Source: Candidatus Lindowbacteria bacterium RIFCSPLOWO2_12_FULL_62_27 | GTDB taxonomy: Bacteria; Lindowbacteria; 2-12-FULL-62-27 | Reading direction: 5' to 3' | Assembly: GCA_001784175.1 (NCBI GenBank) | Contig: MFPR01000040.1 | Location: 44,955-108,954, forward strand | DNA: 64,000 nt | Shown: in pieces, positions 18,408-30,356 of the stretch | Position numbering within the stretch: position 1 is the first letter of the stretch | How the letters are laid out: every line of letters starts with the position of its first letter | Translations under genes and position numbers: made by a program | The notes under the pieces: generated by a model | Told to the model about the DNA's origin: nothing | Databases searched by the model: none | The model's input: the letters and a program-made list of their open reading frames with translations, nothing else

Positions 18408-18507
18408 TGTTTGGATTTCCCGTCAGTCCTTGGGTGTGGAGATAGATCAATCGTTTCGATCGTTTCTGAACACAAGTTCAGAAAAATAAAGTAGGAGGTG
18501 ATTCCAG

Positions 18508-19341
18508 ATGAGAGTAGTTATTTGTTGTCTTATGCTTGTTGCAGTTTTATCCGTGACAGCGTTTGCGGTCGATGTATTCTACGACGATGTATTAATTTCA
18601 GGTTCAACAGGATTTAACGCACCTGGAGAAACTGCCACTTTGTACCTAGGAGATTTCAATAACAGAGTGAATGCTGTTTGGGGATCTGGTTTGCGTTTTT
18701 CCGCATACAATGCGGAAGACCTACTTGTGTTAAATGAAGTAACGGGCAATGTGGGTATCGGGACAGTCTCTCCACAACATAAAATTCATGTTTTCGATGA
18801 CACCAATCCCCGAATTGAGATCGAGGCCAAGTCGGGTATCGTCCCGCTCAGTTCCGAATTGAACCTTGTCACACAACAAGGGGACAGCCCCGCAAAATTT
18901 GTCAATCTCTTTGCAGACGAGCAAGGGAAATTCGGCATTTGGACCGGAGGGCCGGGTGGTGCAGGCTCCACAAAGCTGACTTTGACCTCACAGGGGGACC
19001 TAGATGTTACAGGAAAGATCAACAGCGGGAGTAAAGGCTTGGTCTACTCCACGACAACAGGTTTGAAGAAAATGGTGACTACATCCGTCAGCGTCAACAC
19101 AAGTATTTCAGGTGGCTCCTCGGGTGGCGCTCCTGCGACTGTGTCCTTTAATTTCTCTGAATCGTTTTCAGGAACACCTGTCGCTTGGGTTGGAGATATC
19201 ACTGCTGGATTACCAAGTTTTTTCATTTTCACTCTCAAAGATGTCACCAGTACCGGTGGAACGCTCTCTATATCGAATCCAACATCTAGCTCCGCAACGT
19301 GTAATGTGACCATAAGAATCGTGGCGTTGGGTTCAGAGTGA
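18508..19341 (+). CDS. secreted tail-fibre-like protein with a C-terminal H-type-lectin-like domain (low-GC gene)
   Basis: Shine-Dalgarno-like AGGAGG 8 nt upstream. Signal peptide MRVVICCLMLVAVLSVTAFA. Motif GNVGIGTVSPQHKIHV, typical of tail-fibre-like proteins. The C-terminus ..VSFNFSESFSGTPVAWVGDIT..IFTLKDVTSTGGTL..CNVTIRIVALG fits an H-type lectin pattern. GC content is clearly below the surrounding genes. Confidence 0.55.
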   Translation: MRVVICCLMLVAVLSVTAFAVDVFYDDVLISGSTGFNAPGETATLYLGDFNNRVNAVWGSGLRFSAYNAEDLLVLNEVTGNVGIGTVSPQHKIHVFDDTNPRIEIEAKSGIVPLSSELNLVTQQGDSPAKFVNLFADEQGKFGIWTGGPGGAGSTKLTLTSQGDLDVTGKINSGSKGLVYSTTTGLKKMVTTSVSVNTSISGGSSGGAPATVSFNFSESFSGTPVAWVGDITAGLPSFFIFTLKDVTSTGGTLSISNPTSSSATCNVTIRIVALGSE

Positions 19342-19393
19342 AGCATTCCACATATTATTGATAGCTGTTAGAGCGTTTGGTTTGCCTTAAATT

Positions 19394-19424
19394 ATCCCTC
19401 TCCCGTCCTATGCGGGAGAGGGAT
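19394..19424. repeat. GGGAGAGG-family hairpin (ATCCCTCTCCCG tcctatg CGGGAGAGGGAT), intergenic, terminator-like
   Basis: A 12-bp perfect stem between the lectin-like gene and paralog 2; followed by AAAAGGGG rather than a T-run. Confidence 0.7.
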
Positions 19425-19467
19425 AAAAGGGGAATGGATATGACAAGAAGGGAGGGACTTTATAGAT

Positions 19468-20001
19468 ATGGCGCCAAAAACTTGTGGTATTGGTGTAATT
19501 GTTTCGCTTCTGATCAGTATTCTCGGATTAGGAACCACCTTTGAGCAACCGAAATTCGAGATTGGCTTGGAAGGACAGTGGTTGTTGTCGGCAGGGGACA
19601 ATTACGAATGGAAGTTGCCCGAGTTTCATGCCGAGGGCTGGAAGACCACGCAGGTGCCTGCCGCGTGGGAGTCCCAAGGACTGACCGATTACAACGGGCA
19701 TGGCTGGTACCTGTACACCTTTGTCGTCCCCAAAGAGTGGGAGAAAACAGCCCGCGAGTTTATCCTCGACATGGGCCAGATTGACAACGAAGATGTCACG
19801 TATGTAAACGGCCAAGACGTCGGTTCTACCAGCGGCTGGAACGTACTCCGTTCCTACGGGATACCGAAACCCCTTGTGAAATTCGGAGAAAAAAACGTCA
19901 TCGTGGTCCGCATCTACGACCGCACAAGCGGCGGCATTCTTCGGGGTCCGATCAAACTCCGCAGCGGCGGCGTTGGCCGATTCGACGTCGAAGGCTATTA
20001 A
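19468..20001 (+). CDS. small secreted stand-alone jelly-roll domain protein, paralog 2 (lower GC than paralog 1)
   Basis: 177 aa, co-linear with the 17871..18407 product (..EWKLPEFHAEGWKTTQVPAAWESQGLTDYNGHGWYLYTFVVP..). Shine-Dalgarno-like AAGGGAGGG upstream. Confidence 0.7.
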   Translation: MAPKTCGIGVIVSLLISILGLGTTFEQPKFEIGLEGQWLLSAGDNYEWKLPEFHAEGWKTTQVPAAWESQGLTDYNGHGWYLYTFVVPKEWEKTAREFILDMGQIDNEDVTYVNGQDVGSTSGWNVLRSYGIPKPLVKFGEKNVIVVRIYDRTSGGILRGPIKLRSGGVGRFDVEGY

Positions 20002-20026
20002 AATCAAAGCCGACAATTCCAAAACG

Positions 20027-22426
20027 TTGCCTCCCTGCAACAAATTTCTGGTTGTGTCTCTCGCGCTGGTCCTTTCGGCCATCGGCGTTCTCCCGGACCC
20101 TGCCCGGGCAGACTACCGGGAAGTGTTTGACATCAGTGGCAACCACGTTTTCGCTGGTGAAGAACTCCTACGGATGGAGGGTACGTCTACGACCGGTCCA
20201 GGGTCTGGTGCGTTTGATTTTGTCAATGACCAGCGTCTGTACCGGGACTGGGGTGCAACGGTCAACGTCACGGAATGGGTCAACAATATGCAGTACAATC
20301 TCGATTTTGGCCGTGTCGGTACATGGTTCACGCCGCTGACCCTTCACAAGGAACGGTTCCGGCCCGGATACGCGAATAAGTTATACGACCGCTGGTGGGA
20401 CCAGCGCACCGTGCGGTTCCGGCTGTCCAAGGCCGACCGGGAAACCACCATGCTGTTCGCCAAGACCGCGAACGCCAACGACGACGATGAGTGGTGGGGA
20501 AACACCGCCGCGTACGACAACATCGACATCGACCGCTACTTTTTCGCGTTCCGCCACCGCTTCAACCTCGCCGGCCAGACGCTCGGGTTTTCCTTCGCCA
20601 ATGAGCATTTCTCATCCTTTAAAGGCGGCGGGATCGACCTCGAATCGCCTCTGCAGGGCGACATCCCGGACGATACACCGGTGGTCATCGCGGTGCTCGT
20701 CCGGGATGATTCGCCGCTGGACAAGGACGGCAATACCGACCAGGCCGGCGCCGCCGTGTACAACATCAGAACCTTCGTGGATGGCGCGGAGGACGCCTCC
20801 TTGGCGATCACCAACGGCGATCCCGCGGGCGCCAATACCGTGCGGTACGGCAATTTCATCGAGTCGGCCGACCGCGTTGAGATGATCGGTCCGACGTCCA
20901 CCGGTTTCTCGCACTTTGTGGTCTTCTATTTCCTGCCCCCCACCACCGCCAAATCCGTGAAATTCTTCATCGATGTGGCCGGCGATTACAACATCATCGC
21001 CGCGCCCATCTCTCTGGCCGATTTCAACGGCCGAAGCCTCACCCCGTTCAGCCTGCCGTTTCTCAAGACCACGCGCGCGAAAGGGAACATCCGCGATAAC
21101 TCGAACCGGCAGACCGTTGAGGTGTCGGTCAACAAATTGACTGGCCAGAGCGTCTTCGGCATCGATCTCCATGGGCTTGTCCCCTGGGTCAACGTCGCCT
21201 TTAACGCCGAAATCGCGCGTTCGTTTCGGTACGGCAAATATCCCGTCCAGAAGGGCATCCAGACCTCGGAACACGCCGATGCCCTCTATCTGGAGCTTTC
21301 AAGGGATTTCGGCAAGGTCCTCATGGTCACCAAGGCCTGGGATTTCGATCTCGACTACGACGCATCCTTCGCCGTGGAGGACAACGACGACCGCGACGAT
21401 CAGCCGGATGTCGTCGATTACTACACGTCGAATCTGCCGGGCATCGACCGCAACAACGAGAGCGGCCCGGATTACGAGGAGGACTGGCTGCTCTTTACGG
21501 TCGACCCGCCCGTGTTTCTGGAGGGCGTCGATTACAACAACAACGACGTGCTCGACAACCTCGAAAACGACGCCAAGCCGGACTACCCGAACGGCTGGAT
21601 CGTCGGCACGCGCGGGTTCCACAGCACCCTCGCATGGAAGCCGGTGGCGGGGCTTCGGCTGACGGGCGGGTACCGGGACGAGAAGCGGGCCGTCGATGAA
21701 ACCTCCAACCGCCTGCATCACGCCCGGGCCCGGTATTCGTTCGGCCTCCCCGGCGGCGACGCCGTCCTGCGTTACGATTTCAAACGCGCGAAAGACACGA
21801 TCAACAACGACCTCGTGACGATCCCGTACGATTACGCCCAGCGCACGGAAAACCAGACGGACACCTTGGTGTTTCGCGACGCCATTCGCCAGCAGGCCGA
21901 CGTCACCCTGAATTTCCGGCCGGTCGAAAAACTGCCGATCACCGCGCGATACGCGCACGTGTTCCAGCGGCGGAAATACAACACGAGCATCGTCAACCAG
22001 GGCATCGCGATTCTGCGCGGGCAGTACGAGAACTGGCATCCGTTCCGGAGCGTCGGGTTTCTCGCCGACTGGCAAATCCTGCCGCTGTTCAAATTCCAGC
22101 GTGAATTTTCGTTTTCGGAGGCGGCCCAGAAACGCACCCACCTCTCCGACTTCTTCACCCAGTCCTTCGGAATCGAGGCCATCCGGAAGCTTTCGGACAA
22201 GACCAAGTTTTTCATGGGACACCAGATCCAGAGCCAGTCGAATTTCCTGTCGCAGACCGACTATGACCGGGGCGTGACGGCCTTCCAGCTTGTTCACAAG
22301 AACCGGTTCCGGGACAAGGAGGTTGTCATCACCACCGGCGTGAACATCATCTCCAAACGAAGCGAAAACGCCGCCGACAACCTCGAAACGATCTTCTCGT
22401 ATTTCAGGTCGTACTTCCAATGGTAA
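20027..22426 (+). CDS. predicted outer-membrane beta-barrel protein (porin-like), D/N-rich
   Basis: The TTG start at 20027 is chosen to avoid an overlap with the upstream gene; the in-frame ATG at 19973 is the alternative. Signal peptide ..KFLVVSLALVLSAIGVLPDPARA. Alternating hydrophobic beta-strand pattern and a C-terminal aromatic end ..FSYFRSYFQW, typical of OM barrels. Confidence 0.5.
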   Translation: MPPCNKFLVVSLALVLSAIGVLPDPARADYREVFDISGNHVFAGEELLRMEGTSTTGPGSGAFDFVNDQRLYRDWGATVNVTEWVNNMQYNLDFGRVGTWFTPLTLHKERFRPGYANKLYDRWWDQRTVRFRLSKADRETTMLFAKTANANDDDEWWGNTAAYDNIDIDRYFFAFRHRFNLAGQTLGFSFANEHFSSFKGGGIDLESPLQGDIPDDTPVVIAVLVRDDSPLDKDGNTDQAGAAVYNIRTFVDGAEDASLAITNGDPAGANTVRYGNFIESADRVEMIGPTSTGFSHFVVFYFLPPTTAKSVKFFIDVAGDYNIIAAPISLADFNGRSLTPFSLPFLKTTRAKGNIRDNSNRQTVEVSVNKLTGQSVFGIDLHGLVPWVNVAFNAEIARSFRYGKYPVQKGIQTSEHADALYLELSRDFGKVLMVTKAWDFDLDYDASFAVEDNDDRDDQPDVVDYYTSNLPGIDRNNESGPDYEEDWLLFTVDPPVFLEGVDYNNNDVLDNLENDAKPDYPNGWIVGTRGFHSTLAWKPVAGLRLTGGYRDEKRAVDETSNRLHHARARYSFGLPGGDAVLRYDFKRAKDTINNDLVTIPYDYAQRTENQTDTLVFRDAIRQQADVTLNFRPVEKLPITARYAHVFQRRKYNTSIVNQGIAILRGQYENWHPFRSVGFLADWQILPLFKFQREFSFSEAAQKRTHLSDFFTQSFGIEAIRKLSDKTKFFMGHQIQSQSNFLSQTDYDRGVTAFQLVHKNRFRDKEVVITTGVNIISKRSENAADNLETIFSYFRSYFQW

Positions 22427-25014
22427 CTATCCACCTCCTCTCCCCCCGCAGGGGGATGCGATGTTGGCCGGCCGTCCTTGTCCTCGCCTTGATGTGCATG
22501 TCTCCATCGGCGGTCCATGCGGCCGGGCTCATTGACAGTTTTGAAAATGACAATGCTCTTTCTGACGGTTCTGGCGCAGACGGTAAATGGGTTGTCGGAT
22601 CCGGGACTTATACGCTGACTTACGAATCGAACCGAACGTTTTTTTCGAAAGGCGCGATGCGTGTCGATTATAACAAGGCAGGCACGGCTTATACTTGGAT
22701 TGAAATTAAGGGTGTCGATACAAACATTGGCGCCAATTTCTCCAACGACACATTCATGACGGCTCGAGTTTTTGGCGCCGTCTCCATCCTGGCTAAATTC
22801 CGCGATGACGACTGTGAAAGTGATGTGCAGGTCGCCACGACTACGAATGCGACGGGATGGTCGCTTGTCACTTGGAAATATAATCCCAATGCACAGGTAG
22901 TTGGCTTATGTACCATCAATCCGAATAATATAAAAGATATGCTGTTCTTTGTGGCTCCGGGGGATACTGCCCCATCCGGAACCTTTTACATGGACAACCT
23001 CTGGCTCGGGTACGGCTATCCGAACGCCCCCGACACCGTGACCAACCTCATCGCCGTGCCGGGACCCAAAAACGGGCAGGCGCGCCTGAGCTGGACCGCG
23101 ATCGGGGACACGAACGGGCAGGACCGCGTCAAGCAGTATCTGATCCGGCAGAGCACGAGCACCATCACAGAGTCCGGGTTCAATTCCCTGACGGACCTGA
23201 CCGGTATTCCGGCGCCGTCGGCCGCCGGAACGCTCGATTCGATGATCGTGTCCGGCCTCACGGCCGGCCAGACCTATTATTTCGCCATCAAGGCGGTGGA
23301 TACGAACAGCCAGACCGACAGCCTGTCCAACGTGGCCCAGTCGGCCGCGCTGTCCTCCTCGGCCGGCAGCCTCGTCTTTGACGATTTCTCCGATGGATAC
23401 ACCAAGCCAAACGGATTCGGCAAGGACGTCGGCCAGTGGTCCAGCGGCGGCGCGACCATTTTCATCTCGACGGCCGCTCCCGCCAATTCGCTCGGCAACA
23501 TCGGCGGCGCGCTGGATATCACCTACAACCGAGGCACCGGCGAGTGCGGGTACTATTCCGTCTTGGGCGAAACGGACCTCTCCGCCTACAAGGGCATTTC
23601 TTTCTGGGCGCGCGGCGCCCTCGGTGGGGAGGAATTTCTGATCGGGTTGAAATCGGTTGTGAACGGCAAGGAATCGAAACTGCGCGCCCACGTCTATCTC
23701 AAGCAGGCGCGGATCACGGCGGCGTGGCAGAAAATCGTGATCCCGTTCGCCGCCTTTAACAAACTCGATCCCAGCGAGGTCGCCACGAGCGGGACGCCGA
23801 CCAATCCGCTGACGAAAATGGAAAACGTGTCGTTCACGTTCGGCACCCAGACGGCCTCCGCCTCCGGACAGGTCTTCATCGACGACATCGCGTTCGTGAA
23901 ATCCGTGCCGGTCGTCTTCCTCGAAAATTTCGACACCACGGCCGATCCGTCCGAAGGCACCCACGCGGCGGGCGGAAACGAGGGCGACCTCAATACGAAC
24001 AACGACGATCCCTTCATAGTGGAAAACGGACACGCCAAACTCACGTCGACCATCGCCAACCAGGGGGTATTTCTGACCCTGCTCCAGTTCGGCGACAGCA
24101 CCGGACTCGGGGACAAGACGACGCCCTTCATCGAGGCGACGCATATTTCCTTGTACGCGCGCGGCAACGTCGGCGGAGAATCGCTCGAGATCAACCTTCA
24201 GGACAAGTACAATCAAAGCCGGGCTGTGAACGTGCGGGACGTTCTCGGCACGGCCCTTCCCGCCGTCTGGACAAAAGTGTCGGTTCCGCTGATCCTGTTT
24301 CCCGGGGTCGACATGACGTTCATGGACGCCGTCCATATCCGTCTGGCCGAGGCCGGCAAGATCGCGTTCATCGATTCGATCGTCTTCGACGACAGCGCCA
24401 CGCCCACCGCGCCGTCCAATCTCCTCCTGAACGGCGTCCTCGCCACCGCCAACGCGCCCCTCACGACCCGCAACACCCTCAGCGTCACGGCCGACGACGG
24501 CGCCACGGACGTCAGCATGCAGGAGGTCCGCTTCGAGTACTCGACCACCGGCGGGTCGGACTGGAGCCTGATCGGTGTCGACCGAGACGTCGCCGATAAC
24601 ACGTACCAGGTAATCTGGGTCACCCGCAACATCGCGGGCGCCCCTTTCTACGCGGCTGTTCCCGTCAACCTCTCCTACCGCGCCGTCGCCGTGGACGTCG
24701 CGGGCAACACCACCGCCACGGCCGCGCTGGCGGCGTCCACGATCAACACGAGCAACGTGGTCGTCTATCCCAATCCCTACTATCCGTTGCAGGGCGGAAA
24801 AATGAAAATCACCAACCTGTCGACCGGCGCGACGGTCAATATCTACACGCTCTCGGGCGAGCTGGTTGTGCAGCTCCTGGATTCCGACAACGACGGCCAG
24901 GTCGACTGGACGGGCGTCAACAAGGGCGGCGACCGCGTCGCCAGCGGCCTGTACCTCTACGAGGCGATCCTCTCGGCGGGTAGAGAGCGCGGAAAGCTGG
25001 TTGTAATTAAATGA
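22420..25014 (+). CDS. secreted multidomain carbohydrate-binding protein (CBM-like modules and FN3) with a T9SS C-terminal sorting domain
   Basis: Signal peptide (alternative start at ATG 22456). FN3-like ..KQYLIRQS..GLTAGQTYYFAIKAVD. CBM-like module LVFDDFSDGY..QVFIDDIAFV. The C-terminus VVVYPNPYYPLQGGKMKITNLSTGATVNIYTLSGELV..WTGVNKGGDRVASGLYLYEA..KLVVIK matches the T9SS type-A CTD pattern. Confidence 0.7.
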   Translation: MVTIHLLSPRRGMRCWPAVLVLALMCMSPSAVHAAGLIDSFENDNALSDGSGADGKWVVGSGTYTLTYESNRTFFSKGAMRVDYNKAGTAYTWIEIKGVDTNIGANFSNDTFMTARVFGAVSILAKFRDDDCESDVQVATTTNATGWSLVTWKYNPNAQVVGLCTINPNNIKDMLFFVAPGDTAPSGTFYMDNLWLGYGYPNAPDTVTNLIAVPGPKNGQARLSWTAIGDTNGQDRVKQYLIRQSTSTITESGFNSLTDLTGIPAPSAAGTLDSMIVSGLTAGQTYYFAIKAVDTNSQTDSLSNVAQSAALSSSAGSLVFDDFSDGYTKPNGFGKDVGQWSSGGATIFISTAAPANSLGNIGGALDITYNRGTGECGYYSVLGETDLSAYKGISFWARGALGGEEFLIGLKSVVNGKESKLRAHVYLKQARITAAWQKIVIPFAAFNKLDPSEVATSGTPTNPLTKMENVSFTFGTQTASASGQVFIDDIAFVKSVPVVFLENFDTTADPSEGTHAAGGNEGDLNTNNDDPFIVENGHAKLTSTIANQGVFLTLLQFGDSTGLGDKTTPFIEATHISLYARGNVGGESLEINLQDKYNQSRAVNVRDVLGTALPAVWTKVSVPLILFPGVDMTFMDAVHIRLAEAGKIAFIDSIVFDDSATPTAPSNLLLNGVLATANAPLTTRNTLSVTADDGATDVSMQEVRFEYSTTGGSDWSLIGVDRDVADNTYQVIWVTRNIAGAPFYAAVPVNLSYRAVAVDVAGNTTATAALAASTINTSNVVVYPNPYYPLQGGKMKITNLSTGATVNIYTLSGELVVQLLDSDNDGQVDWTGVNKGGDRVASGLYLYEAILSAGRERGKLVVIK
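22432..22456. repeat. truncated 5' half of the hairpin element (25 nt identical to 14432-14456), ending at the ATG at 22456
   Basis: cacctcctctccccccgcaggggg is identical to the start of the copy at 14432. Confidence 0.75.
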
Positions 25015-26456
25015 GAATACTTGTTTCGTCGCTCCTCGTGGTCTGTGCCTGTTTCAACGCGTTTGCCGGCGGCGTCGGCACCACCGGCGCGAATTTCCTG
25101 AAAATCCCCGCCGGCGCGCGCGGGATGGCGGTGGGCGGCGCGTTCGGTGCGGTGGCCGACGACGCGTTCGGCGCGTACTGGAACCCGGCCGGGATCGTGG
25201 AGACGGCGCGCGCCCAGACAGGATTCAGCCACGTCGAATGGTTGGAGGGGATCAGTTACGAACACGTCAGCGCGGTGGTCCCGCTCGGCCGCGGCCGCAT
25301 CACCTCCCTGCCGCTTCTGGTCGACGATTTCGACGACGGCGCCGATCCCAACGCCCTCGGCGGGCCCATCGGCGCATGGTCCGATCAGGACGCCGGCGGA
25401 TCGTCCATCCTCACCACCGGATATCGCGCCGAAAGACGCGGGCGGTCTTATCGCGTCACCTATCTGGTCCAACCCAGGCCGGACGGCAAGCCCGGTGCGG
25501 CCGGATGGTGGATCGGGATGGAGGGCCGGAACGTGAAGAGCTACCGGTTTCTGGCGTTTCGCATCCGCGGCGCCTACGGCGGGGAGACCGTGACCATCGG
25601 CCTGAAGGACAAAAAGCAGGTTGAAACGCGGGTGGCGCTCTCCGCCTACGGCGGCGTGACGGCGTCCTGGCGAGAGGTGCTGATCCCGCTGGCCGATTTC
25701 AAGAACGTCGATCTTACCCAGCTTGACAATATATCGCTGGCCTTCGCCGGGTCCGGCGCGGTGTATCTCGACGACCTCATGTTTTCCGGCAAGCGGTCCA
25801 GCGTCCACGGCCTCGGGGTTTCCGCCGGGTATCTCACGTCCGGCAAAATCCCGAGAACGGTCGAGATCGCCGCGTTTCCGTTTTATCAGGAGGTCGGCAG
25901 TTTCGATGTCGGCGCGTCGGTCCTCGGCGTCACGTACGGCCGGGGATTCCTGCTCGGCCCCGTCTATATGCCGGCCGGATTCACCCTGAAATACATCGGC
26001 GAGAATCTCGCCGAGGAACACGCCTCCGGATACGCCCTCGATGTCGGGCTTCTCCTCTCCCCCGCCGACAGCCGCCGGTTCCGGTTCGGCGTGTCCATCC
26101 AGAACATCGGATCGATGAAAGCCTTTGTCCAGGAAGCCGACCCGCTGCCGCTCAACGTCAAAACATCGTTTCTCCTCAAGTCCGATTCCGGCCGCACCCT
26201 CTTCTCGGCCGACATGGACCTTCCCGTCGACGAAGAACCCAGGTTCCGGCTGGGCATCGAGTCGTGGCTCTTCAGATTCTTCAGCCTGCGCGCCGGGTAT
26301 GCCTTCGGCGAAAAAGGCGAAGGACTGCGCGGCGCCGCCGCCGGCCTGGGCGTTCAACTCGGCGGCGTCGTGATCGATTATGCGTTTACCCCGTGGGGCG
26401 ATCTGGGCGACGCCCACCGGTTCTCGGCCACGCTGGTGTGGGGACAGGCCCGATGA
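25011..26456 (+). CDS. PorV/PorQ-family-like outer-membrane protein with an inserted CBM-like module
   Basis: The ATG overlaps the upstream stop (ATGA). The N-terminal region ..GANFLKIPAGARGMAVGGAFGAVADDAFGAYWNPAGI resembles the conserved start of PorV/PorQ-family proteins. A CBM-like insertion (DDFDDGADPNALGG..AVYLDDLMFS) is homologous to modules in the upstream cargo protein. The C-terminal ..WGDLGDAHRFSATLVWGQAR is barrel-like. Confidence 0.55.
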   Translation: MRILVSSLLVVCACFNAFAGGVGTTGANFLKIPAGARGMAVGGAFGAVADDAFGAYWNPAGIVETARAQTGFSHVEWLEGISYEHVSAVVPLGRGRITSLPLLVDDFDDGADPNALGGPIGAWSDQDAGGSSILTTGYRAERRGRSYRVTYLVQPRPDGKPGAAGWWIGMEGRNVKSYRFLAFRIRGAYGGETVTIGLKDKKQVETRVALSAYGGVTASWREVLIPLADFKNVDLTQLDNISLAFAGSGAVYLDDLMFSGKRSSVHGLGVSAGYLTSGKIPRTVEIAAFPFYQEVGSFDVGASVLGVTYGRGFLLGPVYMPAGFTLKYIGENLAEEHASGYALDVGLLLSPADSRRFRFGVSIQNIGSMKAFVQEADPLPLNVKTSFLLKSDSGRTLFSADMDLPVDEEPRFRLGIESWLFRFFSLRAGYAFGEKGEGLRGAAAGLGVQLGGVVIDYAFTPWGDLGDAHRFSATLVWGQAR

Positions 26457-27676
26457 GAAGGAGATTTTGGATTTTGGATTTTGGATTTTGGATTGTCGGG
26501 ATACTTCTGTGCTGGAGCCTCTCGGCCGTCGCCGCGCAGCCGCCCGCTGCGACGCTCCTGTTTGCGCCGCCTGGCGCCGGGAGCGTCGGTATGTCGGCCG
26601 CCGGCGCCGAGGACATCGGGTCGGCCCTCTGGCACAACCCGGCCGGACTTGTGCATCTGCGGTACCGCGAGATCGAGGCCGGGTTTGGCAGCAACTCGAA
26701 CGGATTCGACGCGCACGCCGGATATTTCGACCCGGGTAAACCCATTCTCGGTTTGCCGATGGCGTTCCGCTTCGACGCGCTGACCTCCAACGTCCTTCTC
26801 AGCGACACCAGCCCGGATCGGAAGTTCGGCGACGGCCATCTGATCGCCGTTTCCGCCGGCGCCGGTTTTTACGCCGCTTCGCGGTTGTCGCTCGGTGCGG
26901 CCACGCGGTTCTTCCATCTGAAAGCTCCGGCCGGAAACGGCGTTGGCGCCGTCGCGGATCTCGGCGCGATCTACCGCCCCGGCGAATTGATCCGATTCTC
27001 ATACGGCATCAAAAACCTTGGCTTCGTATCCAGCATTCCCGGTAGCCAGGGCGACATGCCCGTGACCCAGCTTTTGGGCGTTCACGTCAAATCCCCCGCG
27101 CGGGGCAACATCGCGATGGACGCCGTCCTGGGCTGGCCGGCCGACCTCAAGGGCTTCTGGAGTGTGGCCGGGACCTACCGGTTCACGGAGTCGTTGGGCA
27201 TGCGATTTCATCTGGCCGAGGCCAAAGACATCCCGGTCATCGACGGGCGCGGGATTGGATTCTTTCTAAACACATATTGGGGCAAGTTCGATCTGTCGTA
27301 TCAGTTGGCGGAGCTTGGAAATTTCCTCAGGTTCACCTGGATCCGCCGATCGAGCCGGCCCCCTGAAACCTACCCACCCCTCCTCCGGAGCCGGCCGCGT
27401 CCCCCCCCCGCCGCGGGCTCTATTATATATGGAGAGGCGGAAGGTGAACCTGCGAAGGAAAAGACCGGGTCGCCGGCCGGATCAGCGCCTCCGGCGCCGC
27501 CCGGGCGGATCAAGGATGCCGAAGGCACCCCGGCGGTGGCGACGCCGGTGGACGCGGAACCGCCGTCCACGGAGGAGTTTTTCCGTCCGGCCCCCAAGCG
27601 TCCTTCTGTGCCCGAAGGTCCGGCCGCCGACGCCGACGCCCCGGCGGCCGTCGCTGTCCCGGTGGACGAACGATGA
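26453..27676 (+). CDS. second PorV/PorQ-family-like outer-membrane protein with a Pro/Ala-rich low-complexity C-terminal tail
   Basis: ATGA overlap with the upstream gene. N-terminus MRRRFWILDFGFWIVGILLCWSLSAVAA (heptamer element plus signal peptide). ..GSVGMSAAGAEDIGSALWHNPAGL motif. The C-terminal 100 aa are P/A/E-rich and include an in-frame GSAPPAPP element. Confidence 0.5.
   Translation: MRRRFWILDFGFWIVGILLCWSLSAVAAQPPAATLLFAPPGAGSVGMSAAGAEDIGSALWHNPAGLVHLRYREIEAGFGSNSNGFDAHAGYFDPGKPILGLPMAFRFDALTSNVLLSDTSPDRKFGDGHLIAVSAGAGFYAASRLSLGAATRFFHLKAPAGNGVGAVADLGAIYRPGELIRFSYGIKNLGFVSSIPGSQGDMPVTQLLGVHVKSPARGNIAMDAVLGWPADLKGFWSVAGTYRFTESLGMRFHLAEAKDIPVIDGRGIGFFLNTYWGKFDLSYQLAELGNFLRFTWIRRSSRPPETYPPLLRSRPRPPPAAGSIIYGEAEGEPAKEKTGSPAGSAPPAPPGRIKDAEGTPAVATPVDAEPPSTEEFFRPAPKRPSVPEGPAADADAPAAVAVPVDER
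26463..26487. repeat. heptamer mini-element (GATTTTG)x3.5 at codons 4-12 of CDS 26453..27676 (RFWILDFGFWI)
   Basis: gattttggattttggattttggatt follows ATGAGAAGGA. Confidence 0.9.
27477..27504. repeat. partial copy of the second element family, in frame as ..GSAPPAPPG.. within the low-complexity tail of CDS 26453..27676
   Basis: ccggatcagcgcctccggcgccgcccgg. Confidence 0.6.
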
Positions 27677-27749: not shown

Positions 27750-28799
27750 ATGATCAAGAAGAAACTGCTCCAGAACGGGGCGTCCCGCAAGTCCAACATC
27801 TATGACGTGGCCGAGGAGGCCGGCGTGTCCATCGCGACCATTTCCCGCGCCATGAACAATCCCGCGATCGTCTTTCCCGAAACTCTCAAGCAGATCGAGA
27901 CGGCCATGAAAAAGCTCCGGTACCGGCCCAGCCCCGAGGCGAAATGCCTCGCGCAGCAGAAGAGCGACCAGATCGCCGTGTTCCTGTCGCCTCACGATGA
28001 GGTCCACTATGCCCTCGTCGTCATGAACTTTCTCGTCGGCATCATCTGGGGCGCCGAAAAGAACCGGCTTCGCATGACGGCGCATATGCTGTTCAAGACC
28101 GAGGAGGAAAACGCCGCCGTGGACGTGACGACTTCCCTGGAAGGCGCGATCATGATGGCGGACATGAAGCGCAGCGGGGCCTTGAGGGAACTCGAGCAAA
28201 ACAAAGTCCCGGTCGTCTATTTGAACTGCACCGACCATCCCAAAAAACACCGGATCACGGTGGACGACGCCGCCGGCGCCGGACTGGCGCTGGAGCATCT
28301 CATCCAGCTCGGCCACGAGCGTATCGCGTTTCTGACCGGCGAGATGACCACGATCAGCGGCCTCGCCCGCGCCCGTGGCTGCCAGGAGACTTTGAAAAAG
28401 CATGGCCTGCTCGAAGCGACGGAAAAGAACAGGTTTTTCCGAAACGCGCGGTTCGACCAGAAGATCGCCTACGCCGAAACCCATGACCTCCTCCGGCAAA
28501 CCCCGCGGCCCACCGCCATCTTCGCCGCCAGCGACTGGATGGCCCTCGGGGCCATCACCGCGATCCGCGAAAAAGGCCTGGCCGTGCCCCGCGACGTCTC
28601 CGTGGTTGGATACGACAACTCCATCCTCGCCTCCCAGGTCACGCCGCCGCTCACCACGGTCCACCAGCCGTTCGTGGAAATGGGCAAGGAAGCGGTGGCG
28701 GCCATCCTGAAGATCCGCGAGGAATCCGGCCGCGTCTATCACAAGACGCTGGAGCCGAGTCTCGTGATCCGGGAAACCACGGCGCCGCCGGCCAAATGA
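27750..28799 (+). CDS. LacI-family transcriptional regulator
   Basis: Shine-Dalgarno-like AAAGGAGG 9 nt upstream of ATG 27750. N-terminal helix-turn-helix NIYDVAEEAGVSIATISRAMN. Periplasmic-binding-protein-like effector domain. Confidence 0.85.
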   Translation: MIKKKLLQNGASRKSNIYDVAEEAGVSIATISRAMNNPAIVFPETLKQIETAMKKLRYRPSPEAKCLAQQKSDQIAVFLSPHDEVHYALVVMNFLVGIIWGAEKNRLRMTAHMLFKTEEENAAVDVTTSLEGAIMMADMKRSGALRELEQNKVPVVYLNCTDHPKKHRITVDDAAGAGLALEHLIQLGHERIAFLTGEMTTISGLARARGCQETLKKHGLLEATEKNRFFRNARFDQKIAYAETHDLLRQTPRPTAIFAASDWMALGAITAIREKGLAVPRDVSVVGYDNSILASQVTPPLTTVHQPFVEMGKEAVAAILKIREESGRVYHKTLEPSLVIRETTAPPAK

Positions 28800-28823: not shown

Positions 28824-30356
28824 ATGCGGCTCGTCAAGAAGGATCTCCTCGGGAAAATCCTCCTCACCACCAGGATCATTTCCAAAGATCAGCTCCGCGA
28901 GGCTTTGGAGCGCCAGCAGAAGTCGCCCCTCAAACTCGTCGGCGAAATCCTCATCGAACTCGGATACGCCACCCAGGCCGACGTGCTCACCGCCTACGCC
29001 CTTCAACACGGCATCCGGTATGTCAACCTCGACGACACCGACCTCCCTCATTCCTCCATCGCCGGCCGCTTGCCCGCCAAATTCGCCTGCAAGTACTGCA
29101 TCCTGCCGCTCAAGGAGGACGACGCGACATTCACCATCGCGTCCCACATGCCCAAATACGTCGACAAGACCATCGTCGACGATCTCGAATTGATCCTGGA
29201 CAAAAAAATCGAGCTGGTGATCTGCGGCAAAGACCAGCTCATCGCCAAAATATGCGAGTTCTACCGCATCGCACGCGAGGAATATGACCGGCTGCGGTCC
29301 ATCACCGACCGCGTGGCCATGGAGCTGCCGGACCTGGCGGAAGATCTGGCGCAGGAACCGTTCGACGGCGACCGCCTGGCGGTCGTCAAAAACAGCCCCA
29401 AGATGGCCGCGCTCTATGAAACGATTCTGAGAGTTGCCAAAAGCAACGCGGCCGTCCTGCTCCTCGGCGAAACCGGCACCGGCAAGGAGGTTTGCGCCAA
29501 GGTCATCCATCAGAACAGTCTGAGGAAGGACAAGCCGTTCATCAAAGTCAGTTGCGCCGCGCTGCCGGAGACGCTCCTCGAAAGCGAGATGTTCGGTTAC
29601 GAAAAAGGCGCGTTCACCGGCGCATACAGCCGCAAGCAGGGCCGGTTCGAGCTCGCCAGTGGCGGCACCCTCTTCCTCGACGAAATCGGCGAGATTACCA
29701 TGCCCGTCCAGATCAAGCTCCTGCGCGTCCTCCAGGACGGCGAGATCGAGAGGCTCGGCGGCGTCCACTCCATCAAAACCGACGTGCGGATCATCGCGGC
29801 GACGAACCGCAACCTCGAACAGGAAGTCAAGGCGGGCCGGTTCCGGCAGGACCTCTTTTACCGGCTGAACGTGGTCGCGTTCCAGATCCCGCCGCTGCGC
29901 GACCGCAAGGAGGACATCCCGTACCTGATCGAGCATTTCATCCAGAAGTTCAACCGGAAGAACGACCGGCACGTAAAGTACGTGTCGCCTAAGGTCACCG
30001 ACCTTTTGATGGAATACGACTGGCCGGGAAACATCCGGGAACTCGAAAATTGCATCGAACGCATGATCGTCACGTGCACCTCCGACAAAATCCTCGTCGA
30101 ACACATTCCGTTCCACTTGAAATCGCTCCAGATGCAGGTCGCCTACAGCGGGATTTCGGACGACACGGCCGCATCTCCAGCCGGGCCGGCGCCCGGCCAT
30201 GCTCCGTCTGCCGGTCCGGCAACATCGGCGGCGCTCTCCCGAGAACAGATCGAGGAAGCCCTGCGGAAAACCAGGTGGAACAAAGTCCGCGCGGCCAAAC
30301 TCCTGAACATCCACCGCAACACGCTGATGAAAAAAATCAAGGACCTCGGGTTGTAA
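28824..30356 (+). CDS. sigma-54-dependent transcriptional activator (enhancer-binding protein) with an N-terminal T2SSE_N/MshEN-like domain instead of a receiver domain
   Basis: N-terminal ..LTTRIISKDQLREALE..LVGEILIELGYATQADVLTAYALQHGIRYVNLDD.. is GspE-N/MshEN-like. AAA+ sigma-54 interaction domain (VLLLGETGTGKEV, GAFTGA, GGTLFLDEIGEI). C-terminal Fis-type helix-turn-helix LLNIHRNTLMKKIKDLG. Confidence 0.85.
   Translation: MRLVKKDLLGKILLTTRIISKDQLREALERQQKSPLKLVGEILIELGYATQADVLTAYALQHGIRYVNLDDTDLPHSSIAGRLPAKFACKYCILPLKEDDATFTIASHMPKYVDKTIVDDLELILDKKIELVICGKDQLIAKICEFYRIAREEYDRLRSITDRVAMELPDLAEDLAQEPFDGDRLAVVKNSPKMAALYETILRVAKSNAAVLLLGETGTGKEVCAKVIHQNSLRKDKPFIKVSCAALPETLLESEMFGYEKGAFTGAYSRKQGRFELASGGTLFLDEIGEITMPVQIKLLRVLQDGEIERLGGVHSIKTDVRIIAATNRNLEQEVKAGRFRQDLFYRLNVVAFQIPPLRDRKEDIPYLIEHFIQKFNRKNDRHVKYVSPKVTDLLMEYDWPGNIRELENCIERMIVTCTSDKILVEHIPFHLKSLQMQVAYSGISDDTAASPAGPAPGHAPSAGPATSAALSREQIEEALRKTRWNKVRAAKLLNIHRNTLMKKIKDLGL

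What the first reader, a model, noticed from the sequence alone, without database searches (positions are those of the whole stretch)
22420..27676. T9SS-type cargo protein followed by two coupled PorV/PorQ-like outer-membrane proteins, one carrying a CBM-like module inside the barrel protein
The carbohydrate-binding protein 22420..25014 ends in a canonical T9SS type-A C-terminal domain. The next two genes (ATGA-coupled) start with the ..FLKI..AR..AVGGAF.AVADDA.A.YWNPAGI signature typical of PorV/PorQ-family proteins. The first of them has a roughly 150-aa CBM-like insertion homologous to modules of the cargo protein. PorV is the shuttle that receives C-terminal-domain cargo. A dedicated cargo-PorV-like pair with a sugar-binding insertion suggests a substrate-tethered surface complex in a PUL-like locus that has no SusC/SusD. 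A preceding probable outer-membrane barrel (20027..22426) may be part of it.
Basis: partly seen in the sequence, partly recalled or inferred. Interest (0 to 1): 0.65.

Follow-up and report, generated by a model that had tools for sequence, protein, structure and literature searches.

The report
Sugar-binding protein with dedicated membrane anchors
In an uncultured groundwater bacterium, a sugar-binding protein with a type IX secretion tail is encoded in one tightly coupled gene block with three outer-membrane barrel proteins, one of which has a copy of the sugar-binding module inserted on what is probably its inner (periplasmic) face, so the block looks like a new kind of outer-membrane device for capturing and importing a polysaccharide.

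Summary
Gene 22420-25014 encodes a signal-peptide protein with three CBM30/11-like modules, FN3/Ig spacers and a C-terminal domain that passes TIGR04183. It overlaps (ATGA) gene 25011-26456, a PorV/PorQ-family 14-strand barrel (NF033709, 126 bits) with a 170-aa CBM30-like sandwich 30% identical to the cargo's second module. That gene overlaps (ATGA) gene 26453-27676, a divergent second PorV-family barrel (profile-profile probability 98.5%). The upstream 800-aa protein is a large outer-membrane barrel of an undescribed family.

The block, including a small secreted lectin-like protein, recurs in five other metagenomic loci, always among GH144-type beta-1,2-glucanase genes. The organism is a Lindowbacteria MAG, outside the phyla where T9SS is established.

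- The insert lies between strands 2 and 3, a periplasmic turn, so it probably faces the periplasm and not the surface.
- A CTD protein directly upstream of a PorV-like barrel is the general PorU-PorV-type arrangement (68 of 102 barrels), here recruited to a glycan locus.

Whether the genome has core T9SS genes could not be tested. The barrel with an insert is rare: about 8 of roughly 11,000 family clusters. I rate it a new variant of a known kind, of moderate to good interest.

The parts
19468..20001 (+). Small secreted protein (177 aa) with a GH2_N-like (galactose-binding-like) beta-sandwich. First gene of the conserved cassette. Its end overlaps the longest reading of the next gene.
   Evidence: Pfam PF02837, 33.3 bits. 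Orthologs of 176-178 aa lie directly before the 800-aa barrel gene in L003, L004 and L085. The N-terminal hydrophobic signal and the conserved C-terminal ...V[ED]xY were read from the sequences.
19973..22426 (+). 'p800': a large outer-membrane beta-barrel of an undescribed family (799-817 aa; start TTG at 19973 or 20027). It has an inserted beta-sandwich (about aa 220-350), an Asp/Asn-rich region with an EF-hand-like loop (aa ~441-527) and a C-terminal YFQW beta-signal.
   Evidence: No Pfam or NCBIfam hit. 194 homologs, none with a Pfam domain. AF2 pLDDT 79.7, pTM 0.78, all-beta. Foldseek finds only generic large barrels (SlpA, MtrB, FimD), TM <= 0.32. Conserved in the cassette loci.
22420..25014 (+). 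CTD-bearing glycan-binding protein (864 aa). Layout: signal peptide aa 1-34; CBM-like module A aa ~37-197; FN3 aa ~207-301; CBM30-like module B aa ~318-494; CBM30-like module C aa ~498-657; Ig-like region aa ~665-770; CTD aa 782-864.
   Evidence: Orthologs of 885-908 aa share the same C-terminal domain in L001, L003, L004 and L085.
24763..25011 (+). C-terminal domain of the cargo, a type-A-like T9SS sorting domain. Motifs: VYPNPYYP ... SGELV ... WxGxNxxGxxVASGLYLY ... GKLVVIK.
   Evidence: TIGR04183, 25.6 bits against a cut-off of 23. PorZ CTD region, 53.7 bits. Invariant motifs in five orthologs. An HMM of this CTD finds no other copy in the 64-kb window.
25011..26456 (+). PorV/PorQ-family 14-strand barrel with an inserted CBM30-like domain (481 aa). 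Its ATG overlaps the cargo stop codon (ATGA).
   Evidence: NF033709, 126 bits against 90. AF2 pLDDT 86.5 with 14 strands. The top Foldseek hit is F. johnsoniae PorV 8gl6_F, E = 1e-9, TM 0.63. The family profile against 6h3i_F gives E = 2.8e-47.
25287..25805 (+). CBM30/CBM11-like beta-sandwich (aa ~93-265) inserted between barrel strands 2 and 3, that is, in periplasmic turn T1.
   Evidence: Pfam CBM30, 32.8 bits. PDB CBM30 1wmx/2c24, E = 1e-3. CBM11 1v0a, TM 0.65. 30% identity to cargo aa 321-492. Position taken from the alignment with insert-free relatives and from the AF2 strands. Topology argument.
26453..27676 (+). Second, divergent PorV/PorQ-family barrel (aa ~27-299) with a proline-rich C-terminal tail of about 108 aa (27351-27673), presumably periplasmic. 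Its ATG overlaps the preceding stop codon (ATGA).
   Evidence: hhalign against the PorV-family profile: probability 98.5%, E = 2.5e-15. Its HMM also finds canonical PorV-like ORFs in other loci. Orthologs are present in L001 and L003 but not in L004 or L085.
27750..28799 (+). LacI-family regulator. Locus context; a LacI gene also lies next to the cassette in L004 and L085.
   Evidence: Pfam LacI and Peripla_BP_3.
28824..30356 (+). Sigma-54-dependent activator with an N-terminal MshEN domain. Locus context; also present near the cassette in L003.
   Evidence: Pfam Sigma54_activat 239 bits, MshEN 45.7 bits, HTH_8.

Best explanation
This is a conserved, translationally coupled outer-membrane module inside a beta-1,2-glucan-type utilisation locus of a Lindowbacteria MAG.

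**Components**
1. A small secreted lectin-like protein.
2. A large barrel of a new family (p800).
3. A Sec-exported protein with three CBM30/11-like modules and a type-A, PorZ-like T9SS C-terminal domain (CTD).
4. A PorV/PorQ-family 14-strand barrel.
5. In some lineages, a second and more divergent PorV-family barrel with a proline-rich periplasmic tail.

**Proposed mechanism**
- The CTD protein is exported and then held on the cell surface because its uncleaved CTD binds non-covalently to its own PorV-family barrel. PorU is held this way by PorV and PorZ by PorQ in the Porphyromonas attachment complex. Type-B CTD proteins are held the same way by cognate PorP/SprF barrels.
- On the surface, its CBMs capture the glucan for the many GH144-type enzymes encoded around it.
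- The p800 barrel is the most likely route for oligosaccharides into the periplasm.
- The CBM30-like domain in periplasmic turn T1 of the PorV-like barrel would receive or hold the incoming chain, or tether the complex, on the periplasmic side.

**Shown**
- Domain identities, and the homology between the insert and the cargo module.
- Gene coupling and synteny in six loci.
- The general association of PorV-like barrels with an upstream CTD protein.
- The position of the insert between strands 2 and 3.

**Inferred**
- Cell-surface location of the cargo.
- CTD-barrel binding.
- The ligand.
- The role of p800.
- The periplasmic orientation of the insert, which follows from the topology rule and not from model coordinates.
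For: **Family assignments.**

**Insert homology.** The insert is homologous to the cargo module, E = 7e-16.

**Gene coupling.** The overlaps are ATGGTAA, ATGA and ATGA.

**Synteny.** The same order (small protein, 800-aa barrel, CBM30 protein with CTD, PorV-CBM) occurs in L001, L003, L004 and L085. All of these lie among PF10091/GH144, F5/8-type-C and LacI genes.

**Substrate context.** The window holds six PF10091 proteins, which match the GH144 endo-beta-1,2-glucanase 5gzh. It also holds a GH94 protein closest to the GH94 domain of cyclic beta-1,2-glucan synthase, E = 1.7e-272.

**A specific partnership rather than a general secretion tag.**
- The CTD occurs only once in the 64-kb window although it holds more than ten large signal-peptide CAZymes.
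- 68 of 102 PorV-like ORFs in the fetched loci have a CTD protein ending within 600 bp upstream on the same strand.
- These upstream proteins include a true PorU (L064, 741 bits) and also NHL or propeller proteins and unknown proteins.
- Only 5 of 101 CTD proteins are followed by a PorV-like gene.

**CTD type.** It is closest to the PorZ CTD. Its nearest metagenomic relatives are PorZ-like proteins. PorZ keeps its CTD and stays bound to PorQ (PMC5562754, PMC10947112, listed).

**Not the housekeeping barrels.** The first barrel scores 38 against NF033710 (PorV, cut-off 250) and 65.8 against NF033711 (PorQ, cut-off 220).

**Periplasmic elaborations.** Other members of the clade carry periplasmic additions: P0004 has a C-terminal OmpA domain and the second barrel has a Pro-rich tail.
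Against: - No core T9SS gene (SprA/Sov, PorK/L/M/N, PorU) was seen in the window or in 10-kb flanks of a related contig. The rest of the genome could not be searched.
- Lindowbacteria is reported as the closest phylum to Spirochaetes. Spirochaetes carry PorV/PorQ-family proteins without a T9SS.
- TIGR04183 passes only narrowly, and Pfam Por_Secre_tail did not hit.
- If the cargo is on the surface while the homologous insert is periplasmic, the two related modules work in different compartments. That is odd.
- p800-type barrels pair with type-B-like CTD proteins elsewhere without any PorV-like gene. So p800, and not the PorV-like barrel, could be the CTD partner.
- No binding, localisation or ligand data exist.
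Confidence: 0.55

Rival explanations
1. The whole assembly faces the periplasm and does not depend on a T9SS. The organism has no type IX translocon. The 'CTD' is simply an Ig-like docking domain that fixes a periplasmic multi-CBM protein to the underside of the outer membrane through the PorV-like barrel and its periplasmic CBM-like domain. There the assembly collects oligosaccharides that have entered through p800.
For: - The insert is in periplasmic turn T1.
- It is 30% identical to a cargo module, which is most easily understood if both modules sit in one compartment and bind one ligand.
- Lindowbacteria is the sister phylum of Spirochaetes, and PorV/PorQ-family proteins occur there without a T9SS.
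- No T9SS core gene appears in about 84 kb of sequence inspected.
- The clade has other periplasmic additions: an OmpA fusion and a Pro-rich tail.
Against: - In solved T9SS complexes the CTD binds the extracellular side of PorV (8gl6, top structural match).
- The CTD keeps all the type-A motifs across five orthologs at 44-69% identity and passes TIGR04183.
- Proteins upstream of PorV-like barrels include a bona fide PorU, so the pairing derives from T9SS components.
- FN3 and Ig spacers are typical of surface-displayed binding proteins.
Confidence: 0.17
2. This is an ordinary T9SS cargo next to the organism's general-purpose PorV and PorQ. The two barrels would be the housekeeping shuttle and attachment-complex subunits that serve all cargo and happen to lie in this locus.
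For: Both barrels belong to the PorV/PorQ family. Tandem CTD-PorV-PorV arrangements exist elsewhere, including PorU-PorV-PorV in L064.
Against: - The upstream protein is a CBM protein and not PorU.
- Both barrels score far below the PorV, PorQ and PorV2 equivalog cut-offs.
- The pair travels with the glycan cassette in five other loci from different lineages.
- The barrel carries a module copied from, or shared with, its neighbour.
- The insert-bearing form is confined to about 8 of roughly 11,000 family clusters.
Confidence: 0.08
3. The PorV-like barrels are FadL-type channels for a small or amphipathic substrate and have no functional link to the C-terminal domain of the neighbouring protein. 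The adjacency would reflect only co-regulation within a nutrient-uptake operon.
For: The family belongs to the FadL superfamily. It has the NPA motif and an N-terminal plug, and it hits TodX, TbuX and FadL.
Against: - The profile is about 38 orders of magnitude closer to PorV than to TodX.
- 68 of 102 family members have a CTD protein directly upstream, compared with a 5% background from the CTD side.
- The genes overlap by ATGA.
- The insert is homologous to the neighbour's module.
Confidence: 0.08

Closest known systems
PorU-PorV and PorZ-PorQ pairs of the Porphyromonas gingivalis T9SS attachment complex (PMC5562754, PMC8545088, PMC10947112)
   Same: - A protein with a type-A CTD that is retained and held on a PorV/PorQ-family 14-strand barrel.
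- The gene order 'CTD protein, then barrel', as in porU-porV.
- The CTD here is most similar to the PorZ CTD.
   Different: - The passenger is a multi-CBM glycan binder, not a C25 sortase or a propeller protein.
- The barrels are not orthologs of PorV or PorQ.
- One barrel carries a 170-aa CBM30-like domain in a periplasmic turn.
- The genes sit in a glycan-utilisation locus of a non-FCB candidate phylum.
- The presence of the rest of the T9SS is unknown.
Type-B CTD proteins with cognate PorP/SprF-like barrels (SprB-SprF, PG1035-PorP; PMC9143113, PMC12618676)
   Same: A dedicated, genetically linked pair of a CTD protein and a FadL-family 14-strand barrel, in which the barrel acts as specific shuttle and anchor. 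Periplasmic anchoring partners exist (PorE with an OmpA-like domain), comparable to the OmpA fusion in P0004.
   Different: The CTD here is type-A-like and the barrel is of the PorV/PorQ subfamily, not PorP/SprF. Published work states that all type-A CTDs use the general PorV. A cargo-specific PorV-like barrel for a type-A CTD has not been described in the papers found.
SusC/SusD with surface glycan-binding proteins in Bacteroidota polysaccharide utilisation loci
   Same: A locus-encoded outer-membrane barrel together with a surface glycan-binding protein, surrounded by glycoside hydrolases and a regulator. This is the same logic of capture, import and periplasmic breakdown.
   Different: There is no TonB-dependent transporter (no Plug or TonB_dep_Rec domains), no SusD and no lipoprotein signals. 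The binding protein has a CTD instead of a lipid anchor. The barrel belongs to an unrelated and uncharacterised family.
FadL/TodX hydrophobic-compound channels and the spirochaetal UPF0164/PorV-like proteins
   Same: A 14-strand barrel with an N-terminal plug and an NPA motif. PorV/PorQ-family members occur in lineages without a T9SS.
   Different: Sequence similarity is much weaker than to PorV. Those proteins are not encoded downstream of a CTD protein and carry no inserted CBM.
CBM30 and CBM11 of Clostridium thermocellum cellulases (1wmx, 2c24, 1v0a)
   Same: The same beta-sandwich family by HMM and by fold.
   Different: Here the module is inserted into a membrane barrel, or arrayed in a non-catalytic CTD protein. 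The genomic context points to beta-1,2-glucan and not to beta-1,4- or mixed-linkage glucan. The ligand is untested.

Membership tests
T9SS type-A CTD cargo (TIGR04183) | C-terminal domain of about 70-100 aa that scores above the TIGR04183 cut-off | tested here: met
   25.6 bits against a cut-off of 23, at aa 782-862. The CTD part of the PorZ model scores 53.7 bits. Pfam Por_Secre_tail gave no hit; CHU_C and FlgD_ig were only weak.
T9SS type-A CTD cargo (TIGR04183) | N-terminal Sec signal peptide | tested here: met
   Read from the sequence...LVLALMCMSPSAVHA|AGLIDSF. No signal-peptide predictor was available.
T9SS type-A CTD cargo (TIGR04183) | Conserved CTD motifs are kept among orthologs | tested here: met
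   VYPNPYYP, SGELV, ASGxYLY and GK[LF]VVIK are invariant or nearly so in five orthologs.
T9SS type-A CTD cargo (TIGR04183) | The genome encodes the T9SS translocon and motor (SprA/Sov, PorK/L/M/N) and the PorU sortase | not testable with these tools
   None were found in the window or in 10-kb flanks of a related contig. The single genome-collection scan was saturated by generic PorV hits and never reached this genome.
PorV/PorQ family (NF033709), gene 25011-26456 | Scores above the family cut-off | tested here: met
   126 bits against 90. The family profile against solved PorV 6h3i_F gives E = 2.8e-47.
PorV/PorQ family (NF033709), gene 25011-26456 | 14-strand FadL-type barrel with an N-terminal plug and an NPA motif | tested here: met
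   The AF2 model has 14 strands, pLDDT 86.5. The top Foldseek hit is PorV 8gl6_F, followed by FadL and TodX. YWNPAG is invariant.
PorV/PorQ family (NF033709), gene 25011-26456 | Ortholog of PorV (NF033710), PorQ (NF033711) or PorV2 (NF052325) | tested here: not met
   38 against 250, 65.8 against 220 and 56.3 against 325 bits; only the N-terminal part matches.
PorV/PorQ family (NF033709), gene 25011-26456 | Binds the CTD of a partner protein | not testable with these tools
   Only indirect support: ATGA coupling to a CTD protein, and 68 of 102 family members with an upstream CTD protein.
PorV/PorQ family (NF033709), gene 26453-27676 | Scores above the family cut-off or shows full-length profile homology | tested here: inconclusive
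   The curated model gives only 16.1 bits against 90. Profile-profile comparison gives probability 98.5%, E = 2.5e-15 over 268 columns. Its own HMM finds canonical PorV-like ORFs down to E = 4e-11. It is a homolog, but too divergent for the curated model.
CBM30 (PF21582) | Scores above the gathering threshold and has a beta-sandwich fold | tested here: met
   Cargo 40.6 bits and barrel insert 32.8 bits, against 27. CBM30 structures 1wmx/2c24, E = 1e-3. CBM11 1v0a, TM 0.65.
CBM30 (PF21582) | Binds a carbohydrate | not testable with these tools
   No ligand data. The context suggests beta-1,2-glucan.
SusC/SusD-type polysaccharide utilisation locus | Adjacent SusC-like TonB-dependent transporter and SusD-like lipoprotein | tested here: not met
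   None of the 24 window proteins scanned hit Plug, TonB_dep_Rec or SusD.
FadL-type hydrophobic substrate channel | Closer to FadL/TodX/TbuX than to PorV | tested here: not met
   PorV E = 2.8e-47 against TodX E = 1.7e-9.

The most novel reading that the evidence does not exclude
The cassette is a self-contained system for displaying CTD proteins and importing glycans, and it works without the classical T9SS translocon in a phylum outside the FCB group.
- The undescribed p800 barrel family is always coupled to CTD-bearing lectin-like proteins: type-B-like CTDs in Latescibacteria-type loci, and this cassette here. p800 would be either the export or anchor barrel for those proteins, or the channel of a SusCD-like importer whose lid is a CTD protein.
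- The PorV-like barrel with a periplasmic CBM would link surface capture to periplasmic hand-over.
Probability: 0.12. Interest if true: 0.85.

Novelty: new variant of a known kind. Interest (0 to 1): 0.58.

Why it matters
Outside Bacteroidota it is largely unknown how diderm bacteria display glycan-binding proteins on their surface and bring large oligosaccharides across the outer membrane.

This cassette offers a concrete, conserved candidate with three parts:
- a CTD-tagged multi-CBM protein with its own PorV-family anchor barrel;
- a new family of large barrels that is coupled to CTD-bearing lectin-like proteins in every context examined;
- a barrel with a sugar-binding fold in a periplasmic turn.

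Published work states that type-A CTDs all use the general PorV. This locus suggests that cargo-specific PorV-like barrels also exist, as they do for type-B CTDs. It also suggests that CTD-barrel pairs occur in candidate phyla far from Bacteroidota. If the genome lacks a classical T9SS, the finding would bear on how such proteins reach or attach to the outer membrane at all.

The modules are also candidates for beta-1,2-glucan-binding domains. Few such domains are known, a statement that rests on my own knowledge and was not checked here.

Tried and rejected
- **Genome-collection scan with the five insert-bearing barrels.** One of the two back-translated patterns was the generic PorV motif. 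The organism-level T9SS test therefore could not be run. The 80 loci were still useful as a family-wide control.
- **Metagenome scan with the CTD alignment.** It did not recover Lindowbacteria-like contigs, only CTDs at 25-45% identity. I used these as the background set.
- **Flanks of a related 123-kb contig.** More glycosidases, a giant 6209-aa protein and a toxin-antitoxin pair, but no T9SS genes.
- **Promoter and terminator scan.** Counts did not exceed the shuffled expectation, so it was uninformative.
- **The two barrels as recent duplicates: rejected.** Direct BLASTP between them is insignificant.
- **p800 as a SusC-like or TonB-dependent transporter: rejected.** It has no Plug or TonB-dependent receptor domain.
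- **The long match spans in L064 and L075 as further insert-bearing barrels: rejected.** They are two adjacent barrel genes.
- **Model coordinates are not accessible.** The side on which the insert lies rests on strand parity and published PorV/FadL topology, not on inspection of the model.

Full report
**Checking the observation**

The window has about 62% G+C, and the true genes have GC3 near 0.8.

Four + strand genes are translationally coupled:
- 19973/20027-22426, called p800 here. It overlaps the next gene by ATGGTAA.
- 22420-25014, the cargo. It overlaps the next gene by ATGA.
- 25011-26456, the first barrel. It overlaps the next gene by ATGA.
- 26453-27676, the second barrel.

A fifth gene, 19468-20001, precedes p800 and overlaps its longest reading.

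The cargo (864 aa):
- It starts with a Sec-type signal peptide.
- Pfam CBM30 scores 40.6 bits against a cut-off of 27, in two stretches. There is a weak FN3 hit.
- TIGR04183 scores 25.6 bits against a cut-off of 23 at aa 782-862.
- The CTD end of the PorZ model gives a stronger match, 53.7 bits.

The first barrel (481 aa):
- NF033709, the PorV/PorQ family, scores 126 bits against a cut-off of 90.
- Pfam CBM30 hits inside the protein at 32.8 bits.
- The inserted part aligns to cargo residues 321-492 at 30% identity, E = 7e-16, and to a second cargo module at E = 4e-8.

The second barrel is weak against curated models, at 16 bits. A profile of three orthologs nevertheless matches a 72-sequence PorV-family profile over the whole barrel: hhalign probability 98.5%, E = 2.5e-15. 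Its own HMM also finds canonical PorV-like ORFs in other loci.

**Organism and locus**

Exact-sequence look-up places the window in a Candidatus Lindowbacteria MAG from the RIFCSPLOWO2 series, proteins OGH56008-56023. A recent phylogenomic study treats Lindowbacteria as the closest phylum to Spirochaetes, so it lies outside the FCB group where T9SS is established.

The window is a very large glycan locus:
- six proteins with PF10091;
- a GH94 enzyme;
- GH2- and GH15-like enzymes;
- many F5/8-type-C and malectin modules;
- a LacI regulator;
- a sigma-54 activator with an MshEN domain.

The PF10091 proteins match solved GH144 endo-beta-1,2-glucanases. The GH94 protein is closest to the GH94 domain of cyclic beta-1,2-glucan synthase, E = 1.7e-272. 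The substrate is therefore probably beta-1,2-glucan. There is no SusC, SusD or TonB-dependent receptor.

**Conserved cassette**

Among 5.8 billion proteins, only five others carried the barrel-plus-CBM architecture. An exhaustive HMMER search of 1.84 billion representatives gave about eight clusters with the insert, among 11,295 hits.

Their contigs show the same order:
- a small 176-178-aa GH2_N-like protein;
- an 800-aa barrel;
- an 885-908-aa CBM30 protein;
- the PorV-CBM barrel.

These loci are L001, L003, L004 and L085, the last labelled Elusimicrobiota. All lie among PF10091, F5/8-type-C and LacI genes.

The last gene varies. The second barrel is present in the window, in L001 and in L003. 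In L001 it follows an inserted M6 peptidase gene. L004 and L085 have an unrelated 284-286-aa protein instead.

All cargo orthologs keep the same C-terminal domain, with invariant VYPNPYYP, ASGxYLY and GK[LF]VVIK motifs. An HMM of this domain finds no second copy in the 64-kb window.

**Structures**

The AlphaFold2 model of the first barrel has pLDDT 86.5 and 14 strands:
- strand 1 at residues 68-76;
- strand 2 at residues 82-92;
- a beta-sandwich at residues 93-265;
- twelve further strands, ending at residue 477.

The best structural match is Flavobacterium PorV in the substrate-bound translocon, 8gl6_F, E = 1e-9. Next come CBM11 for the insert (TM 0.65) and FadL/TodX. The family profile hits solved PorV at E = 2.8e-47 and TodX at E = 1.7e-9.

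p800 models as a large all-beta barrel, pLDDT 79.7. It has an inserted sandwich and an Asp/Asn-rich region that contains an EF-hand-like loop. Foldseek returns only generic big barrels with TM at or below 0.32. Neither p800 nor any of its 194 homologs has a Pfam domain.

**Which side the insert faces**

- In FadL-family barrels the N-terminal tail threads the pore from the outside, and strand 1 starts at the periplasmic rim (PMC12611786).
- In PorV the strand 3-4 loop is the extracellular loop that enters SprA.
- The insert lies at the opposite end of strand 3. Twelve strands follow it. The C-terminus is periplasmic, because the relative P0004 carries a C-terminal OmpA domain.
- Polar residues cluster at the tips of the odd-to-even hairpins, which fits those tips being extracellular. 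This was read from the sequence.

The insert therefore occupies periplasmic turn T1. I put this at about 75-80% confidence. It rests on topology, because model coordinates cannot be inspected here.

**How general the pairing is**

I scanned the 88 sequences held at that point (the window and 87 fetched loci) with local HMMs.
- 68 of 102 PorV-like ORFs have a same-strand ORF that ends within 600 bp upstream and whose C-terminus matches the cargo CTD model.
- Those upstream proteins include a true PorU (L064, 741 bits) and a PorU-like protein.
- They also include NHL or propeller proteins and unknown proteins of 1000-1200 aa. These come from Poribacteria, FCPU426, Endomicrobia, Krumholzibacteriota and even a Chitinophagaceae MAG.
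- Tandem arrangements of a CTD protein followed by two barrels also recur, in L064, L023, L075 and L015.
- Starting from the CTD side, only 5 of 101 CTD proteins from metagenomes are followed by a PorV-like ORF.
- The nearest CTD relatives are PorZ-like proteins.

PorV-family barrels therefore usually have a cognate CTD protein. In this locus that partner is a glycan binder.

**p800 elsewhere**

In five distant contexts (two in L086/L087, plus L170, L171 and L172), the gene directly upstream of a p800-like barrel is a 610-850-aa protein. It carries an F5/8-type-C-like domain and a CHU_C/FlgD_ig C-terminal domain with the FTPNGDGxND motif. I recognise that motif, from memory, as the type-B CTD signature. 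No PorV-like gene is nearby.

In the window, the gene upstream of p800 is a small galactose-binding-like protein without a CTD. The cassette may therefore combine two pairs: a lectin with p800, and a type-A CTD protein with a PorV-like barrel.

**Interpretation**

The best-supported reading is a dedicated pair of a surface glycan-binding protein and its anchor barrel, built on the PorU-PorV / PorZ-PorQ principle. It is also analogous to the type-B CTD-PorP/SprF pairs (PMC5562754, PMC9143113, PMC12618676). The pair is embedded in an outer-membrane module in which p800 is the likely oligosaccharide conduit. The periplasmic CBM of the barrel would act as a receiver or a tether.

Rivals:
- A wholly periplasmic, T9SS-independent assembly. 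This is attractive because the homologous modules would then share a compartment, and because of the host's phylogenetic position.
- Housekeeping PorV and PorQ barrels. This is unlikely.
- FadL-type channels unrelated to the CTD. This is also unlikely.

The decisive test is whether these genomes encode SprA/Sov and PorK/L/M/N. I could not run it, because the one genome scan was saturated.

**Novelty**

A full-text search for PorV together with carbohydrate-binding modules and polysaccharide utilisation found no description of a PorV-like barrel with an inserted CBM, or of a cargo-specific PorV-family barrel for a type-A CTD. p800 has no Pfam or NCBIfam family.

I class the finding as a new variant of a known kind, with an interest score of 0.58. 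The bolder reading is a translocon-independent CTD display and import system built around p800. I give it about 12% probability; it would be of high interest if true.

Noticed in passing
window 19973-22426; L086 5332-8022 and 10001-12655; L170 7001-9670; L171 7001-9637; L172 7001-9604: The p800 barrel family (800-1000 aa, no Pfam or NCBIfam model, about 194 homologs, mostly from Latescibacteria-type MAGs) is directly preceded in every distant context examined by a lectin-like protein of 610-850 aa. That protein has an FTPNGDGxND-type (CHU_C/FlgD_ig, type-B-like) C-terminal domain, often overlaps the start codon, and has no PorV- or PorP-like gene nearby. This looks like an undescribed barrel partner for CTD proteins.
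   Followed up: partly
loci L005-L084 (PorV-like match near position 10000 in each): 68 of 102 PorV/PorQ-family ORFs, from many candidate phyla including non-FCB ones (Elusimicrobia, Poribacteria, FCPU426, Desantisbacteria), have a CTD-bearing protein ending within 600 bp upstream. Only some of these are PorU. Others are NHL or propeller proteins, or unknown proteins of 1000-3300 aa.
   Followed up: partly
window 1-64000: The whole window is one very large glycan locus. It holds six PF10091 (GH144-like) proteins, a GH94 closest to the cyclic beta-1,2-glucan synthase phosphorylase domain, GH2- and GH15-like enzymes, and many F5/8-type-C and malectin modules. This suggests a beta-1,2-glucan specialist.
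   Followed up: partly
window 28824-30356; L003 17205-18698: A sigma-54-dependent activator has an N-terminal MshEN domain. From memory, this domain type binds c-di-GMP; that was not checked here. The activator lies next to the cassette and is conserved near it in a second lineage.
   Followed up: no
window 22420-25014: The NCBI protein model for the cargo (OGH56019/OGH63055) is 674 aa, whereas the ORF is 864 aa. The deposited annotation therefore lacks the signal peptide and the first CBM-like module.
   Followed up: no
window 18408-19467 (ORF 18508-19341): A stretch with about 51% G+C contains a 277-aa ORF with GC3 of 0.44, against about 0.8 in its neighbours. It has a signal-peptide-like start and no family hit. 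It separates the glycosidase genes from the cassette. Similar low-GC stretches occur at about 30.4-31.5, 34.1-38.3, 48.4-49.8 and 58.4-59.8 kb.
   Followed up: no
window 20027-22426, aa ~441-527: p800 has an invariant Asp/Asn-rich segment that includes DYNNNDVLDNLE. This fits the EF-hand/dockerin-type calcium-loop pattern DxNxNxxxDxxE.
   Followed up: no
P0004 (777 aa; contig of 2.8 kb): One member of the insert-bearing clade also has a C-terminal Ig-like region and an OmpA peptidoglycan-binding domain, so it carries two periplasmic elaborations on one PorV-like barrel.
   Followed up: no
L001 5872-7833: In the relative GCA_023249255.1, a Peptidase_M6 gene is inserted between the PorV-CBM barrel and the second PorV-like barrel. 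Both its junctions are 4-nt overlaps.
   Followed up: no
window 59819-64000 (runs off the end); L089 13259-21836: The last gene of the window (PF10091, malectin and CBM30 modules) corresponds in a related strain to a called product of 6209 aa. Its C-terminus was not seen, so whether it has a CTD is unknown.
   Followed up: no
window 41974-44433: An 819-aa protein combines an AMPK1_CBM (glycogen-binding-type) module with a C-terminal AhpC/thioredoxin-like domain. This is an unusual combination inside a glycan locus.
   Followed up: no
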